Source: Candidatus Dojkabacteria bacterium (GTDB lineage Bacteria; Patescibacteriota; Dojkabacteria; J137). From it: DNA of 64,000 nt. The DNA is taken from positions 12,168 through 76,167 of the forward strand of contig JAUQWV010000006.1 in NCBI GenBank assembly GCA_030834985.1, read 5' to 3'. This document shows positions 18,001 through 39,000 of the stretch, in pieces; the first letter of the stretch is position 1; each line of letters starts with the position of its first letter. Position numbers: made by a program.

Positions 18001-21000
18001 CTATATTAAAGTAGAAAAGGTTGTAAAAGGTGTACGTGATTTTCCGCGTATAAGATTATCTAGAGACCAAGATGATACTAACGCAATTTATTACGGTCCT
18101 TATCCAAATAATTTACCTTTAAAAAATATTCTAAAGCGTCTAAGACGGGTTTTTCCTTATGTAAGCTGTAATCGCAGATTAGTGCAGGTTTCTGATAATC
18201 CGTTAAAGATAGATACAAATAATCCAACACCATGCTTATACTATCACATAGGTTTGTGTCAGGCTCCATGCGCAAGTTTAATAAGCAAAAATGAATATGC
18301 AAAAAACTTTAGGAATATTATTAAGTTCTTAGATGGACGAAAAAACGAAATTATTGATGATTTGCAAAAACAAATGGATAAACTTTCAAAAGAATTTAAG
18401 TATGAGGAAGCTGCAGAGTTGCGTGACCGTATAAGAGATATTAAGTATGTAACTCAAAATGTAACAATTGGCAGAGATGTTGATGACATTATTGTTGATA
18501 CTGTTAAAAAAGAGCAGAGAGAGAATGCTATAAACGAATTGATTGAAGAATTAGGCTTTCCAGCTGATAAATTAAAGAATCACGAGGACTTTAAAATTGA
18601 ATGTTACGATATCAGCAATATTCAAGGCACAAATGCAGTTGGCGCGATGACCGTTATGGTGGATGGAGTTTTACGACCCGATTTGTATAGGCGATTTAAA
18701 ATCAGAACAAAAAAAACGCCAAATGATTTTGCAATGCTACAGGAAGTTTTAAGTCGAAGGTTTAGACATTTTATGGCAGACCAGAATAGAGAAGACGAAA
18801 AAGATGAAAGTTTTTCAGTTTTACCGGATTTGATAATTATAGATGGCGGCAAGGGCCAGCTTGCTGCTACATTTAAGATCTTAAGCAACTTTGGCCTTGC
18901 CGCCTTAGTTCCAATCATCGGCTTAGCAAAACGAGAAGAAGAGATTTTTAAAGTGCAATGGCAATTTAACGAAGATGAATGGCCTGATTTAGCATTAAAA
19001 AGATTTAAAAGAATATTCTTGCCAAGAAAATCTCAAAGTCTGTTTTTAGTACAAAGAATAAGAGATGAAGCTCACAGATTTGGAATAACTTTCCATAGAA
19101 AACTACGTTCTAAACAGATGGTTAAAGAAATTGAAGAAAAGTTCGCCAAAGATTAGGCTTTTGGTGGAGGAACATCAATATATACTTCTTTTGGTTTATC
19201 CTCAGAACTTGGATTATCTATTCTAACGCTGATTGAATCGCTACTGCTTCTTCTGAATAATCGAAAACGCGGCGCCTTAATAACTTTAGTTGTTGCAACC
19301 GTAACCACCACGGCGCCGCCCAACAACTTTTCTAAATATCTTTCAGAAATCACATCTAATAATATAATTATAGCGAGCCATACAATTGCAGAAAGATTAA
19401 TATAACCTTCCCCTAAAGGTAACTTAAAGAGTAAAGTTTGCGTCCATTCACTCCAACTAAAAATACTATCTACAAAAGCGCTTTGTCTAAAGGCTGGCAA
19501 AATAGCAAATATTTCGAATAGAATTCTTAATGTAATAATTACTTCAACAATCTTAAAAAGACCATCTACGAAGTTTTGAACAATATCGTGTAGGTTATCG
19601 TATAAAAATCCTGTAATTACTTTACCAACTAAAGATGCTCCAACAATGTAAACTCCTAAAGCAAAAAACGCATCTGTATTTAATGTTGCAAAAGTAGGGT
19701 TGTTTATTCTAACAATATCTTTAAAAGGTGCTATAAGAAAATCAGATACTGAATGTATTACAGAGATAATCGATGAAGTTGGCTGTAGTTCTGCCATATC
19801 AAAAATAACTCTTAGTACAAGAGCTAATGCAATAACACTAGTAACTAGTAATACAACATTTCTAATAGAATCACGAACATTTTCCATATATTCAATTTTA
19901 CCACCATTAATGTTAAAGTTCTTATATGACAAATGCATATCGAATTACCCAACAAGTCGACTCTAACGAAAATCTAGTTTTTTCTTTAGATAAGTACGAC
20001 ACTTTTGGTGTTTTAGAAGTTTTTTCGGATAAAATTGACATTGAGATGCTTTATAACAAATTAAAGATAGAGCATAGTCTTACCGATATCATTGCAAAAG
20101 AAGTTTTTAATGGTAAAAAAAGCATTGTATTTGGGAATTGTCCTGAAAGAATTACTGTAGAAGAAAATGATTTTAAATTTATTGTAAATCTAAAGAACGA
20201 ACAAGACACCGGCCTACCTTTAGATAAGTCTGAACTTAGGAAACTAATTAAAGAATACTCAAACAATAAAGAGGTTCTTGATTTATTCGGCTATACTGGC
20301 CATTTATCGATTTACGCTAGTGCTTCTGAATTAAACACAGTTTCAATAGTAGAGGCTGATTCTAAATTTGTGCAAAAGATCAAAAAAAACTTTGAAATTA
20401 ACTCTATTGACCTTCCTCAAATTTGGGATACAAATTTTTGGAATTTTATAGAAATGGCTAAAGAATCTAGAACTAAATGGGATATGATTTTAGTAGATTT
20501 ATCAGACTATAATCTAGAAAGATTAAAAGACTTTGATTTACAAAAAGACCATACTGAATTAATAAAGACTCTTCAAAATAGACTGTTAAAGCAGTCAGGA
20601 ACTTTAATCTTTACCACAAATGTAAAAGGCTTTGTTTTAGATCAATATATTAGGCCTGGAGCAGATAAATTAACTAATCAAATTGCTACTGAAGCATTTA
20701 AACCTTTAAAAAATACTCAGGCATTTGCATTCTACAACTAGAAAGTTATTACAAGTTATGAGCCTTTTCGAAGCTCGTACATTCTGATGATTTCTTCAAC
20801 AGTATTAGGATAATCTTTATCACGTTTCCATTTTTTCATTCTAGGAAATCGAATAGAAAGTCCTTTTGATGGATCATCACCTAAAACATTAGCTTCTATA
20901 TTTATTGCAGCAGTATGATTAGGGCTCCTTGTAATTTCATCAGCATCGATCTCAGCTACAATAGTAGGCCTTACCCACACATCAGGATATAAGGACTTAT

Positions 21001-36000: not shown

Positions 36001-39000
36001 TCCTATACCCGTTGCGGCTCGGCCAAAAGACCCAGCTACATCTAAATTATCTCTTGCTCTTAACCAGTCAACTCTAATATCATCAGGATAATATCCTCGA
36101 TCTGGATATACATTAGCTGGATTCAAAGGATCTTTATAAAGATTATCGTCTTCTCCTGAAGTTACATAAATTTGATGACCAGGGGAACCTGGAACTCCAA
36201 TTAAAAATTCATGAACAGCATTAGTTCCGACTGTAATAACATCTATGAATAGGCCAGATATTGCATAACTTAAAGGAACTAAAATCATAGCTAATGCAAT
36301 ACTAGGTATTGCGTTTTGAATAGTAACTTCAACATTGCCTGACAATCTTTGCCTAAACATAATCGCAAATGCAATGATTATTACAATTATCAAAAGAAAT
36401 CCGTATACAACTCGAACTGACCAGCTCCAAAAATTTTGAATTGGACTTAGTAATGCAAAACCAGTACCGCCAGGAGAATAATAAGCTTCTCGACTTTCGA
36501 TATCTCCTGTTGTAGCAGCTTGTGCTAAAACTGTTGTCGGATGCGTTAAAGCATAAATCTTATCGTTTACATAAGCAGCTGCACTAATCGGCCTTTCATT
36601 AAGAATAGTACCGTTAATATCTGCTACAACATCAACAATGCTGAATTTACTCTCCATTTTATCCATTACTCTAGATACACTTTCAAGATCACCGCAGCCT
36701 TCTGAGCTTTCTTTACATGCAGCAACTCCCATTGAATATGAGCTACCAGTAATAAATCCATTAGATAACTGATTCATTACAACTCCAACAAAACCACTAT
36801 TCATACTTACAGGACCATTTGGATTTAATTCTGGATCTTCAACACACCAGAAGTTACAAGCGGCAGCGGATGGAGTATACTGCGCTGAAACATTAACAAA
36901 TACAGCTGCATTAAATATAAGGATAAAAAAAAGCAGTAAGTTTCTGTATCTTTCGTTTTTTAAGACTCTTAAAAGCGACTTCAAGATGTAAAATTAATCT
37001 AATTAAATTCAGTATAAAGTAAGAAAAAAACCTATGCAAGGTGATAAAATCAGTTAATAGTAAAGTAAAATTTTATGAAAATTTATACAAAAACTGGCGA
37101 TAAAGGTGAAACTGGAGTAATAGGCGGTAGAGTAAGCAAAACCTCAGTAATTATAGAAGCATTAGGAAATTTGGATGAGTTGAACGCGATTTTGGGGGTA
37201 GTTGTTGCTGCTTCGCAGAATAAAACTTCAAAAGAGGTGGAGTATTTAATTAGACTGCAAAATATTGTATTGAATATAGGAGGATTAGTAGCTGGGGGCA
37301 AAATCGCGTTCAACTTTAAATCAGAAACGTTAAATCTTGAAAAGAGTATAGATCTATTAAATAAAGACCTTAGTGAACTAACCGCCTTTATATTGCCCGG
37401 AGGCGGATTACTAAGCGCGCAAACTCATTTAGCCAGAAGCATTAGCCGTAGAGCAGAGAGATCATTCTTAAAATATATTCAAGCAATTGATGAATCTAAG
37501 CCTGAACATATGAAGATCGATAAAAAAACGTTAGCAGAAGCATTAAAATTCTTAAATAGAATGTCTGACTACTTATTCACTCTTGCAAGATATTTTAACA
37601 AGAACGAGGGGATTAAGGATGTTAAGTGGAACAAACTAATTGATTAATAAATCAAGCTATTAGATAATTTAAGTCATGGAAAAGATTAAAGGTTTGACTT
37701 CTGATGAAGTTGCCAAGAAAAAAAGCTTAGGATTATCAAATGACGTTGTTGACAGTTATTCTCCATCTACATTCATAATATTTCAACGCAACATTTTTAG
37801 CCTTATTAATATAGTAATCATCCCTTTGATGATAGTTTTGTTTACCTACGAACTATATCGAGATGTTTTTGCATTTACTACATTTTTAGTTATCAATACA
37901 GTTGTGTCTATTCTTGATGAATTAAGGATAAAAAGACAGCTTGAAAAATTAAAGCACGAGTTTCAAAAAACAGTAACTGTAATACGTGATGGAGTAGAGC
38001 ACGAAATCCCTACAAATGAAATTGTAGAATCTGATGTAATTAAGGCTAAGGAAGGTGAAGGAGTAATTGCTGATGGACAAATTTTATACGAGAATTTTTT
38101 ACAGCTAGATGAATCTGCATTAAATGGAGAATCAAACTATATTAGGAAGTATAAGGATGAAAAGGTCTTTTCGGGCAGCTATATTGTCACAGGACAATGT
38201 GTATATAAAGTTTTAAGCGTTGGTAAGAATAATTACTTAAACCAGCTTGGAGCAGAGGCACTAAGGTTTAGAGAAAAGAAAAGTCCGATGCAAAAAAACG
38301 CTGATAAGTTGATCTTATTTTTAGTAGTTTCTTCAATTTCATTAGGTTTATTAAATTTTTATGCTTCAGGATTATCTGGCGCAGCAATTGAGCAGAGAAT
38401 ATTAGGATTAACTACTATTATTAGCTTGATTATTCCTCAGACCTTAATCTTTTTGTTTACACTAACTTTCACAATATCTATAACAAGATTGTATAACAAA
38501 GGAATTTTAGTTCAAAAAGGCGGCAGTATTGAAGATTTAGCCAATATAAATGTCATCTGCTTTGATAAAACAGGTACTATAACAACAAACGATATGAAGA
38601 TAGTTAACGTTGAATATTTTAATGTCAAGGAAGATACCATCGGAAAATTCTACAATTCAGTGCGGCATAATATTGTAGGAGTGAATAAGACTCAAGAGAT
38701 AATTAATAAATATTATGCCGCCAAAGAAACTTTTGATTTTACAGAATTTGATCAGATTCCATTCACATCTAAAAATAAATATAGCCTAGTAAGCGCCAAA
38801 AACGGAAAAAATTACCATACTCTCGTTTTTGGCGCGTTTTCAATGCTTAGAAAAAATATTGATCCTAAGGTAATAGAAAAAATTGAGAATCATGTAACAG
38901 AGCAAGAAGATGCTGGCAATCGAATTTTAATAGGAATATATTATGAATCAGACAAAAGATTAGTTGATACAACTAAAAAAGATTTTGATTTAAATAGTGC

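What the first reader, a model, noticed from the sequence alone, without database searches (positions are those of the whole stretch)
20756..36984. Envelope/surface gene neighbourhood with VirB2-like and VirB6-like architectures but no secretion ATPase in view
Within ~16 kb there are nine genes for secreted or membrane proteins. They are the two paralogues above, a 420-aa N-anchored protein at the head of their operon, an SBP with no transporter genes nearby, an Ig/cadherin-like TM protein, an 871-aa polytopic membrane protein with a large C-terminal domain (VirB6/TrbL-like layout), and two unknown soluble proteins of 343 and 597 aa. An ATP-dependent DNA ligase lies 13 nt downstream of the paralogues on the same strand. 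The architecture is compatible with a pilus or type-IV-secretion-like or DNA-uptake-related surface apparatus, as described for episymbiotic small-genome bacteria. No VirB4/VirD4/PilB-type ATPase occurs in the window, so this may be a novel or partial system.
Basis: inference. Interest (0 to 1): 0.7.

Follow-up and report, generated by a model that had tools for sequence, protein, structure and literature searches.

The report
Scattered type IV secretion genes, Dojkabacteria
Three of the flagged genes (two large pilin-like surface proteins and one big membrane protein) are divergent parts of the type IV secretion system already described in ultra-small Patescibacteria, here encoded apart from its motor ATPase, while the other flagged genes show no detectable link to it.

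Summary
The organism is a Candidatus Dojkabacteria (Patescibacteria/CPR).

- **Pilin-like paralogues (500/501 aa).** Each has a leader, a ~390-aa Cys-rich variable ectodomain and a conserved C-terminal VirB2-type hairpin. 33 of 45 family members match Pfam T4SS_pilin.
- **871-aa protein.** It belongs to a large Pfam-less family (2,786 representatives). Solved VirB6 (TrwI) is at or near the top of two fold searches. In 80 loci from other Patescibacteria, its relatives lie beside arrays of 1-9 pilin genes: all 51 loci with enough upstream flank have an array. PrgI/VirB3 (26 of 48) and VirB4 (10 of 48) often follow. I read it as an extended VirB6-like subunit.
- **Other six genes.** The 420-aa protein, the SBP, the Ig-like protein, the 213-aa membrane protein and the 343- and 597-aa proteins have no relatives in those clusters. 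Housekeeping genes are equally syntenic within the class.
- **ATPases.** No VirB4, PrgI or coupling protein is in the window. Published data report VirB4 in Dojkabacteria.

Verdict: a dispersed subset of a known system, not a new apparatus. The recurring pilin-ligase adjacency remains unexplained.

The parts
34369..36984 (-). 871-aa extended VirB6-like polytopic membrane protein. Layout: N-terminal leader/anchor, ~150-aa ectodomain, conserved TM core (~170-510), then a Dojkabacteria-specific C-terminal coiled coil (513-654) and beta-rich domain (665-870).
24123..25625 (-). 'Long pilin' paralogue A (500 aa): leader, ~390-aa Cys-rich variable ectodomain (16 Cys), C-terminal VirB2/T4SS_pilin-type two-helix hairpin.
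   Evidence: Pfam PF18895 E 0.068, below threshold. Family-level: 33/45 members match, best 1.4e-9. My pilin-hairpin HMM, E 2e-43; the window paralogues were among its training sequences, so this hit is circular. BLASTP E ~1e-12 to a bona fide PF18895 pilin in an array next to an 871-family gene (L009). TM layout.
22578..24083 (-). 'Long pilin' paralogue B (501 aa, 17 Cys), same architecture as A. The last ~130 aa are ~95% identical to A; the rest is diverged.
   Evidence: The last 360 nt are ~85% identical at DNA level against ~40% upstream. There are 38 synonymous and 17 non-synonymous codon differences in the last 132 codons. That points to purifying selection on the hairpin rather than recent gene conversion.
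25633..26895 (-). 420-aa N-anchored extracytoplasmic protein at the head of the minus-strand gene run. Dojkabacteria-specific, function unknown.
   Evidence: No Pfam, NCBIfam or PDB match. 12 homologues at 49% identity or more, plus 30-40% relatives in other Dojkabacteria loci. AF2 model unusable, pLDDT 50.6. Present without a pilin gene in L093/L094. No relatives in 80 T4SS-type loci.
20756..22564 (-). ATP-dependent DNA ligase (602 aa), 13 nt downstream of pilin B on the same strand.
   Evidence: Pfam DNA_ligase_A_N/M/C. NCBIfam TIGR00574. Pilin-then-ligase adjacency recurs in L001, L003, L007 and in the distant L005/L006. It is broken in L004 and L008.
26984..28477 (+). Membrane-anchored solute-binding protein (497 aa). 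Its stop overlaps the start of the next gene.
   Evidence: Pfam SBP_bac_8/SBP_bac_1. Weak MalE-like NCBIfam hit. The SBP / Ig-like pair is conserved in every Dojkabacteria locus seen. No permease or ABC ATPase in the window.
28477..30624 (+). 715-aa Ig/cadherin-like surface protein with leader, one TM (481-516) and a Pro/Gln-rich tail.
   Evidence: Weak Cadherin and Big_13 Pfam hits. TM scan. Orthologues in all Dojkabacteria loci.
30646..30676 (.). 14-bp-stem hairpin between the convergent Ig-like gene and the 213-aa ORF; likely a bidirectional terminator.
30710..31351 (-). 213-aa Trp-rich polytopic ORF with an internal repeat (YILWLWG twice), in a 42% GC patch. Coding status and function uncertain.
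   Evidence: No homologues among positional equivalents in other loci. No Rfam family in this stretch.
31486..32517 (+). 343-aa soluble, Lys/Arg/Ala-rich protein. Lineage-specific occupant of a variable slot.
   Evidence: No family or PDB matches. No relatives in any fetched locus.
32574..34367 (+). 597-aa soluble helical protein. Lineage-specific occupant of the same variable slot.
   Evidence: No family matches. No relatives in any fetched locus.

Best explanation
The region is a conserved stretch of a Dojkabacteria chromosome. It carries a dispersed subset of the Patescibacteria-type (monoderm, MPF-FATA-derived) type IV secretion system, mixed with unrelated envelope and housekeeping genes.

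Shown:
- The 871-aa protein is the local member of a very large unannotated family whose TM core resembles VirB6.
- In other Patescibacteria classes, members of this family are encoded between VirB2-like pilin arrays and PrgI/VirB3 plus VirB4.
- The two 500-aa paralogues end in the VirB2/T4SS_pilin hairpin.

Inferred mechanism:
- A VirB4 ATPase, with PrgI/VirB3, is encoded elsewhere in the genome and docks on a membrane platform formed by the VirB6-like protein.
- The pilin hairpins are inserted in the membrane by Sec, then extracted and assembled at that platform into a pilus-like or conduit structure.
- The long Cys-rich ectodomains, probably disulfide-stabilised, are displayed on the surface as contact or recognition modules.
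- Duplication with divergence of the ectodomain only gives two specificities.

The C-terminal coiled-coil and beta extension makes this an 'extended VirB6'. The 420-aa protein and the ligase are probably co-transcribed with the pilins, and their roles are unknown. The SBP, Ig-like, 213-, 343- and 597-aa genes are not demonstrably part of the machine.
For: Pilin domain:
- PF18895 matches 33/45 family members, best 1.4e-9.
- One member is named 'pilin' by NCBI.
- BLASTP E ~1e-12 to a true PF18895 pilin in L009.

VirB6-like protein:
- Five of the six best Foldseek PDB hits are TrwI/VirB6 chains; the sixth is from the DotA-IcmX protochannel entry.
- Weak NCBIfam hits to ICE_Mbov_0396_TM and to the MMCAP2_0566 conjugal-transfer family. 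These are the two families hit by the most members (4 and 5 of 52; best E 2.3e-7 and 1.1e-5).

Genomic context:
- 344 relatives were found in GTDB genomes and 80 loci fetched.
- Of 51 loci with more than 7 kb upstream, 49 have two or more pilin ORFs upstream on the same strand. The other two have them downstream.
- PrgI (PF12666) is present in 26 and VirB4 (PF19044, AAA_10) in 10 of 48 loci with more than 9 kb downstream.
- Example: L059 reads long pilin, 7 short pilins, 541 aa, family member, then VirB4.
- Long first pilins (300-500-aa ORFs) are common in those arrays.

Literature:
- Patescibacteria T4SS with VirB2 arrays of 2-11 genes; pilin not near virB4 in about 40% of assemblies; VirB6 'scarce or absent' in Microgenomatia by HMM (PMC12102498).
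- Dojkabacteria assemblies are scored VirB4-positive.
- Extended VirB6 proteins are defined by added central or C-proximal hydrophilic domains (PMC12857230).
Against: - The window's own pilin-like proteins score below Pfam's gathering threshold (15.8 and 13.7 bits against 26.6).
- No Pfam TrbL/VirB6 hit for any family member.
- hhalign of the family profile against the TrwI sequence gives nothing.
- VirB4, PrgI, TrsD and a coupling protein were not located in this genome. I could not scan it.
- A 500-aa 'pilin' is far larger than any pilin shown to polymerise, so the hairpin could be only a membrane anchor.
- Gene order relative to the pilins is inverted and interrupted compared with the clusters of other classes.
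Confidence: 0.72

Rival explanations
1. All nine genes together encode one self-contained, novel surface apparatus specific to Dojkabacteria. The SBP, the Ig-like protein and the 420-aa protein would be integral parts, and the apparatus would use an unknown energy source or none.
For: The block 871-like / small TM protein / Ig-like / SBP / 420-like keeps its order and orientation even in deep-branching relatives (L093, L094; 30-33% identity of the 871-aa protein). Their flanks are rearranged there: AlaRS lies next to the 420-like gene and no cobalamin adenosyltransferase or P-type ATPase is present.
Against: - None of the six extra proteins has a relative in 80 T4SS-type loci of other classes.
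- The 343- and 597-aa proteins have no detectable relatives in the other Dojkabacteria loci fetched.
- The small TM proteins in that slot are not homologous to each other.
- Housekeeping genes are equally syntenic across most of the class.
- The pilin gene is missing from the block in L093/L094 and stands elsewhere in L008.
Confidence: 0.13
2. This is merely conserved gene order among unrelated envelope genes. The C-terminal hairpin of the 500-aa proteins is only a membrane anchor for Cys-rich surface proteins. The 871-aa protein is an unrelated membrane protein (transporter or scaffold) with no secretion role.
For: - No ATPase in the window.
- Sub-threshold Pfam scores for the window proteins.
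- No TrbL match.
- Strong general collinearity of Dojkabacteria genomes.
Against: - The near-universal linkage of the 871-aa family to pilin arrays, and its frequent linkage to PrgI/VirB4, in other Patescibacteria.
- VirB6 at or near the top of two independent fold searches.
- Hits to ICE conjugal-transfer TM families.
- Very strong purifying selection confined to the hairpin, more than a simple anchor would need.
Confidence: 0.1
3. The T4SS-like genes are a decayed remnant of an integrated conjugative element.
For: The T4SS of Patescibacteria derives from monoderm conjugation machinery (PMC12102498). The 871-aa family weakly resembles Mollicutes ICE proteins.
Against: - No integrase, relaxase or repeats in the region.
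- GC content is like the rest of the window.
- The chromosomal position is the same across the class.
- All ORFs are intact and conserved in length.
Confidence: 0.03

Closest known systems
Patescibacteria-clade type IV secretion system (MPF-FATA-derived; Southlakia epibionticum T4SS; Quinonero-Coronel et al. 2025, PMC12102498; Wang et al. 2023 as cited there)
   Same: Monoderm CPR host. VirB2-like (PF18895) pilin genes in tandem. A polytopic VirB6-type membrane protein. No relaxase. Chromosomal location. Pilin genes are often distant from virB4.
   Different: Only two pilin-type genes are present, both ~500 aa with a large Cys-rich ectodomain, and no short pilins are nearby. The VirB6-like protein has a ~370-aa C-terminal extension and is not detected by TrbL/VirB6 HMMs. 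VirB4, PrgI and TrsD are not within 64 kb. A DNA ligase is co-operonic with the pilins.
VirB6/TrwI of R388 and 'extended VirB6' proteins (e.g. Rickettsiales, F-type TraG; review PMC12857230)
   Same: Five or more TM helices with a large extracytoplasmic loop, plus an added C-proximal hydrophilic domain. Best structural match among solved structures. Encoded next to pilins, VirB3 and VirB4 in relatives.
   Different: No detectable sequence homology to TrwI or Pfam TrbL. It has an N-terminal ~150-aa ectodomain. The organism has no outer membrane, so there is no VirB7/9/10 core for it to connect to.
Mollicutes ICE conjugal-transfer membrane proteins (NCBIfam NF045889 ICE_Mbov_0396_TM, NF045848 MMCAP2_0566 family)
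   Same: The only curated families with recurrent, weak sequence similarity to the TM core (best E 2.3e-7 and 1.1e-5 among family members). They come from wall-less or monoderm conjugation systems.
   Different: Scores are far below the curated cut-offs. The Mollicutes proteins are ~300 aa and sit on mobile elements. The present gene is chromosomal and 871 aa.
TrbC/VirB2 conjugative pilins (PF04956, PF18895)
   Same: Leader peptide followed by two hydrophobic helices joined by a short basic loop. Tandem paralogy with sequence diversification, as in Bartonella and Anaplasma virB2 arrays (cited in PMC12102498).
   Different: About 390 residues of Cys-rich ectodomain lie between leader and hairpin. 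Mature VirB2 is ~70-130 aa. Polymerisation is unproven.

Membership tests
T4SS_pilin / VirB2-type pilin (PF18895) | Significant match to the family HMM | tested here: inconclusive
   The window proteins score 15.8 and 13.7 bits against a cut-off of 26.6. However, 33 of 45 homologues match at E<0.1, best 1.4e-9. BLASTP to a PF18895-positive pilin of L009 gives E ~1e-12.
T4SS_pilin / VirB2-type pilin (PF18895) | Leader peptide plus two hydrophobic helices joined by a short charged loop | tested here: met
   Hydrophobic segments at 1-30, ~424-453 and 465-498, with the loop QMGNTEKIKEARTQ.
T4SS_pilin / VirB2-type pilin (PF18895) | Small protein (about 100-150 aa precursor) | tested here: not met
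   The proteins are 500/501 aa with a ~390-aa ectodomain. Long first members (300-500-aa ORFs) do occur in pilin arrays of other Patescibacteria.
T4SS_pilin / VirB2-type pilin (PF18895) | Polymerises into a T4SS pilus in a VirB4-dependent way | not testable with these tools
   Needs microscopy and genetics.
VirB6/TrbL | Match to TrbL/VirB6 sequence models | tested here: not met
   No PF04610 hit in 32 + 52 members even at E<=1. hhalign against the TrwI sequence gives probability 0.4%.
VirB6/TrbL | Polytopic core of 5 or more TM helices with a large loop; fold similar to solved VirB6 | tested here: met
VirB6/TrbL | Encoded in a T4SS gene cluster with VirB4, VirB3 and pilins | tested here: met
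   Met for the family in other classes: pilin arrays in 51/51 informative loci, PrgI in 26/48, VirB4 in 10/48. In the window itself only the pilin genes are nearby (~9-12 kb away).
Patescibacteria-clade T4SS (complete system) | VirB4 ATPase present | tested here: not met
   Absent from the 64-kb window and from 10 kb beyond its right end. The rest of the genome could not be searched. The literature scores Dojkabacteria assemblies VirB4-positive.
Patescibacteria-clade T4SS (complete system) | PrgI/VirB3 and TrsD near VirB4 | tested here: not met
   The PrgI-family HMM gives no hit in the window. TrsD was not specifically tested.
Type IV pilus / competence (PilB, PilM, ComEC) | PilB-type ATPase, N-methyl pilins or ComEC in the flagged region | tested here: not met
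   None in 20756-36984. A separate T4P cluster (PilM, N_methyl pilin) starts ~5 kb beyond the window's right end.
ABC importer (for the SBP) | Adjacent permease and ABC ATPase genes | tested here: not met
   No Walker-A ORF other than UvrB in the window. The neighbours are the Ig-like protein and the 420-aa protein.

The most novel reading that the evidence does not exclude
In Dojkabacteria the T4SS may have been repurposed for DNA acquisition from the host (Ced/ComB-like). The ATP-dependent ligase co-transcribed with the pilin genes would then seal or process imported DNA.

The adjacency recurs in three forms:
- pilin then ligase, in most Dojkabacteria;
- two pilin genes, then ligase, then an exo/endonuclease-phosphatase, in a distant lineage;
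- ligase next to the VirB6-like gene, with a VirD4-type coupling protein about 6 kb away (L093).

Separately, the 871-aa family may be the 'missing' VirB6 that published HMM surveys could not find in Microgenomatia.
Probability: 0.12. Interest if true: 0.8.

Novelty: new variant of a known kind. Interest (0 to 1): 0.45.

Why it matters
The T4SS is essential for epibiotic growth in the one Patescibacterium where it has been tested (cited in PMC12102498 and PMC12857230). Its parts list is still incomplete outside Saccharimonadia.

- This locus points to a family of at least 2,786 representative proteins that has no Pfam model. It behaves as the VirB6-type subunit across Microgenomatia-like lineages and Dojkabacteria. 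A model for it would improve T4SS annotation in CPR genomes.
- The 'long pilins', a VirB2 hairpin fused to a large, fast-diverging Cys-rich ectodomain, are candidate host-recognition determinants.
- The recurring pilin-ligase operon gives a concrete, testable link between this machine and DNA metabolism.

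Tried and rejected
- **Sequence matches for the 871-aa family.** Pfam, NCBIfam and a PDB profile search gave only sub-threshold or noise hits.
- **hhalign against TrwI.** The family profile against the single TrwI sequence gave nothing. I did not build a proper VirB6 profile.
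- **AF2 on the 420-aa protein.** pLDDT was 50.6 with a shallow alignment.
- **PDB profile searches.** The 420-aa and pilin families gave nothing.
- **AFDB fold search.** Unavailable.
- **First genome scan.** A 32-sequence alignment had no usable conserved stretch. An 8-sequence subset worked.
- **Relatives of the 343-, 597- and 213-aa proteins.** BLAST in all fetched loci found none.
- **Hidden RNA gene in the GC-richer patch at 30-32 kb.** Rfam found nothing there.
- **Gene conversion between the paralogues.** Rejected: 85% nucleotide identity with many synonymous differences.
- **ICE remnant.** Rejected for lack of integrase or relaxase and because the chromosomal position is conserved.
- **VirB4 in this genome.** I could not locate it. 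No tool allowed a whole-genome scan. The one extension beyond the window showed housekeeping genes and a type IV pilus cluster instead.

Full report
**1. What is there**

The window is low-GC (about 33%) and gene-dense. Names attached to homologues place it in Candidatus Dojkabacteria, a class of Patescibacteria/CPR.

On the minus strand, the 420-aa protein, paralogue A, paralogue B and the ATP-dependent DNA ligase follow each other with gaps of 7, 39 and 13 nt. A promoter-like site lies upstream of the 420-aa gene, and no terminator-like hairpin lies between the pilin B gene and the ligase gene. Divergently, the SBP gene overlaps the start of the Ig-like gene by one base. A 14-bp hairpin follows.

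Next come a 213-aa Trp-rich membrane ORF on the minus strand and two soluble ORFs of 343 and 597 aa. Last is the 871-aa gene on the minus strand.

Seven of the nine flagged proteins have hydrophobic segments; the 343- and 597-aa proteins have none. Outside the region the window encodes housekeeping functions: class II RNR, UvrC, cobalamin adenosyltransferase, a P-type ATPase, AlaRS, MutL, ThrRS and PBP1.

**2. The paralogues are 'long pilins'**

Both weakly match Pfam PF18895 (T4SS_pilin) at their C-termini, below threshold. Across 45 homologues, 33 match PF18895, best E 1.4e-9. No other family recurs in more than four members. NCBI names one homologue 'pilin'.

The C-terminal ~95 residues are two hydrophobic helices joined by a short basic loop. 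They align at about 39% identity (E ~1e-12) with a bona fide PF18895 pilin in a four-gene pilin array (L009).

The two window copies are ~95% identical over the last ~130 residues and barely alignable before that. At DNA level the last 360 nt are ~85% identical with many synonymous differences. This is purifying selection on the hairpin, not recent conversion. The ~390-aa ectodomain carries 16-17 cysteines, several at conserved positions, and has diverged freely. Most relatives carry one copy; this genome has two.

**3. The 871-aa protein is an extended VirB6-like subunit**

It has no Pfam or PDB sequence match. A word-indexed search found only ~850-aa Dojkabacteria proteins. An exhaustive profile search then found 2,786 representatives at E<=1e-3 and 2,017 at E<=1e-10. 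Beyond the first ~85 hits, most listed are 450-630-aa proteins matching only the TM core.

- **Model.** The AF2 model is confident in that core (pLDDT 80-94). It shows a C-terminal coiled coil and a beta-rich domain that are poorly conserved.
- **Foldseek.** Against the PDB, five of the six best hits are TrwI/VirB6 chains of R388. The sixth is from the Legionella DotA-IcmX protochannel entry.
- **NCBIfam.** There are weak hits to two Mollicutes ICE conjugal-transfer membrane families. These are also the two families hit by the most members (4 and 5 of 52; best E 2.3e-7 and 1.1e-5).
- **Negative results.** hhalign against the single TrwI sequence finds nothing. No member hits Pfam TrbL.

Homology to canonical VirB6 therefore rests on fold and context, not on sequence.

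**4. Genomic context elsewhere is the strongest evidence**

A scan of one genome per GTDB species with a motif from distant family members found 344 relatives. I fetched 80 loci with 10-kb flanks. They come mostly from Pace-, Woese-, Curtiss-, Shapiro-, Beckwith- and Gottesmanbacteria. Many TPA records are titled Gammaproteobacteria or Pseudomonadales, apparently wrongly.

An HMM of pilin hairpins finds 293 ORFs in 63 loci. In the gene-family clustering, 277 of 278 pilin-family ORFs lie on the same strand as the family gene, at a median of 5.4 kb upstream.

| Loci considered | Feature | Count |
|---|---|---|
| 51 with >7 kb upstream | two or more pilin ORFs upstream, same strand | 49 |
| 51 with >7 kb upstream | pilin ORFs downstream instead | 2 |
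| 48 with >9 kb downstream | PrgI-family (VirB3-like) protein | 26 |
| 48 with >9 kb downstream | VirB4-type ATPase (PF19044, AAA_10, weak CagE_TrbE_VirB) | 10 |

The ATPase counts are lower bounds, because these genes lie at the edge of the fetched flank.

A typical cluster is L059: a 395-aa long pilin, seven 110-129-aa pilins, a 541-aa protein, the family member, then VirB4.

The published survey found VirB6 'scarce or absent' in Microgenomatia by HMM and suspected extreme divergence (PMC12102498). This family is a candidate for that missing component.

**5. What does not belong**

HMMs of the conserved cluster families, including VirB4 and PrgI, hit nothing in the window. No coupling protein or other P-loop ORF apart from UvrB is present.

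Conversely, the 420-aa, SBP, Ig-like, 213-, 343- and 597-aa proteins have no relatives in the 80 loci. The 343- and 597-aa proteins have no detectable relative in any other fetched locus. That includes the closest one, L001, where the 871-aa protein is 62% identical. The slot between the VirB6-like gene and the Ig-like gene is variable: it holds 557+282, 366+242, 378, or 683+1307 aa in other genomes.

Within Dojkabacteria the order is conserved from RNR through AI-2E transporter, GT4, UvrC, YggT, methyltransferase, ligase, pilin, 420-aa, SBP and Ig-like to the 871-aa gene, cobalamin adenosyltransferase, P-type ATPase and AlaRS. Housekeeping genes are included, so synteny alone does not define a system.

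One point favours a wider module. In deep-branching relatives (L093, L094) the flanks are rearranged. Yet the block 871-like / small TM protein / Ig-like / SBP / 420-like persists, without a pilin gene.

**6. The ligase**

Pilin-then-ligase adjacency holds in the window, L001, L003 and L007. It also holds in a distant lineage (L005/L006). There, two PF18895-type genes precede a ligase only 35% identical to the window's, followed by an exo/endonuclease-phosphatase gene.

It is not universal:
- In L004 the ligase lies upstream of the pair, behind an opposite-strand gene.
- In L008 a pilin-like gene has no ligase.
- In L093 the ligase follows a 1,074-aa unknown protein whose gene sits next to the VirB6-like gene. 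A VirD4-type coupling protein (TrwB_AAD_bind, TraG-D_C) ends about 2.6 kb beyond the ligase, some 8 kb from the VirB6-like gene.

I regard this as an unexplained but recurrent association. It is compatible with a DNA-handling role or with accidental operon membership in a compact genome.

**7. Mechanism and verdict**

The best reading (confidence about 0.7) is that the window carries three parts of the known Patescibacteria T4SS: an extended VirB6-like platform and two long VirB2-type pilins. They are encoded away from VirB4/PrgI, which published data place in Dojkabacteria genomes.

The assembly mechanism is inferred from canonical T4SS biology, not shown here. In that model, pilins inserted by Sec are extracted at a VirB6/VirB3/VirB4 platform, and their ectodomains are displayed for host contact.

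The claim of a new nine-gene apparatus is not supported. The finding is a new variant of a known kind for four reasons:
- dispersed layout;
- long Cys-rich pilins, duplicated here;
- a VirB6-like family invisible to current models, with a lineage-specific C-terminal extension;
- a pilin-ligase operon.

Noticed in passing
window 40303-40507 (+): T-box leader (Rfam RF00230, 109.9 bits) upstream of a GNAT acetyltransferase gene and AlaRS.
   Followed up: no
window 44449-45684 (-): UvrB is only 411 aa (ResIII and UvrB interaction domains). The orthologue in L001 is likewise 414 aa, so a short or split UvrB seems typical of this lineage.
   Followed up: no
window 30000-32000; ORF 30710-31351 (-): A GC-richer patch (42% against ~33%) holds a Trp/Arg-rich 213-aa ORF with an internal repeat (YILWLWG twice), and overlapping ~97-aa ORFs on the other strand. 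No Rfam family matches. Proteins in the same position in relatives are not homologous.
   Followed up: partly
L095 16249-21281 (about 5-10 kb beyond the window's right end): A separate type IV pilus cluster (PilM/FtsA-like, N_methyl pseudopilin and unknowns) follows RecG, NusB, RNase III and S16. No VirB4 is present there.
   Followed up: no
L005 9426-14199 and L006 881-5732: In a distant lineage, two T4SS_pilin-domain genes (187/213 aa and 568 aa), an ATP-dependent ligase and an Exo_endo_phos gene form a tight same-strand run. It lies next to a serine-recombinase island.
   Followed up: partly
L093 1-2145: A VirD4/T4CP-like ATPase (TrwB_AAD_bind, TraG-D_C, DUF87; the tool's precomputed annotation also lists DUF8128) lies three genes from the ligase and ~8 kb from the VirB6-like gene, in a deep-branching Dojkabacteria-like contig.
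   Followed up: partly
L013-L092 (e.g. L092 5832-8789; L027 14044-17349; L084 17359-20934): T4SS-type clusters of Microgenomatia-like genomes share further unannotated families. One is a ~990-aa protein between the pilin array and the VirB6-like gene (40 loci). Others are ~1,100-1,200-aa proteins downstream whose family HMMs also hit the M23-peptidase protein of L009.
   Followed up: partly
L013-L092 record titles; L038 = CP011212.1: Many GTDB records carrying these CPR-type clusters are titled 'uncultured Gammaproteobacteria/Pseudomonadales' (one isolate name contains 'PATE'). One is titled candidate division TM6. The titles look unreliable as taxonomy.
   Followed up: no
window 11356-15036 (+): The class II ribonucleotide reductase is 1,226 aa. 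The barrel domain matches in two stretches, and there is a weak unrelated hit inside (residues 305-368), which suggests an insertion.
   Followed up: no
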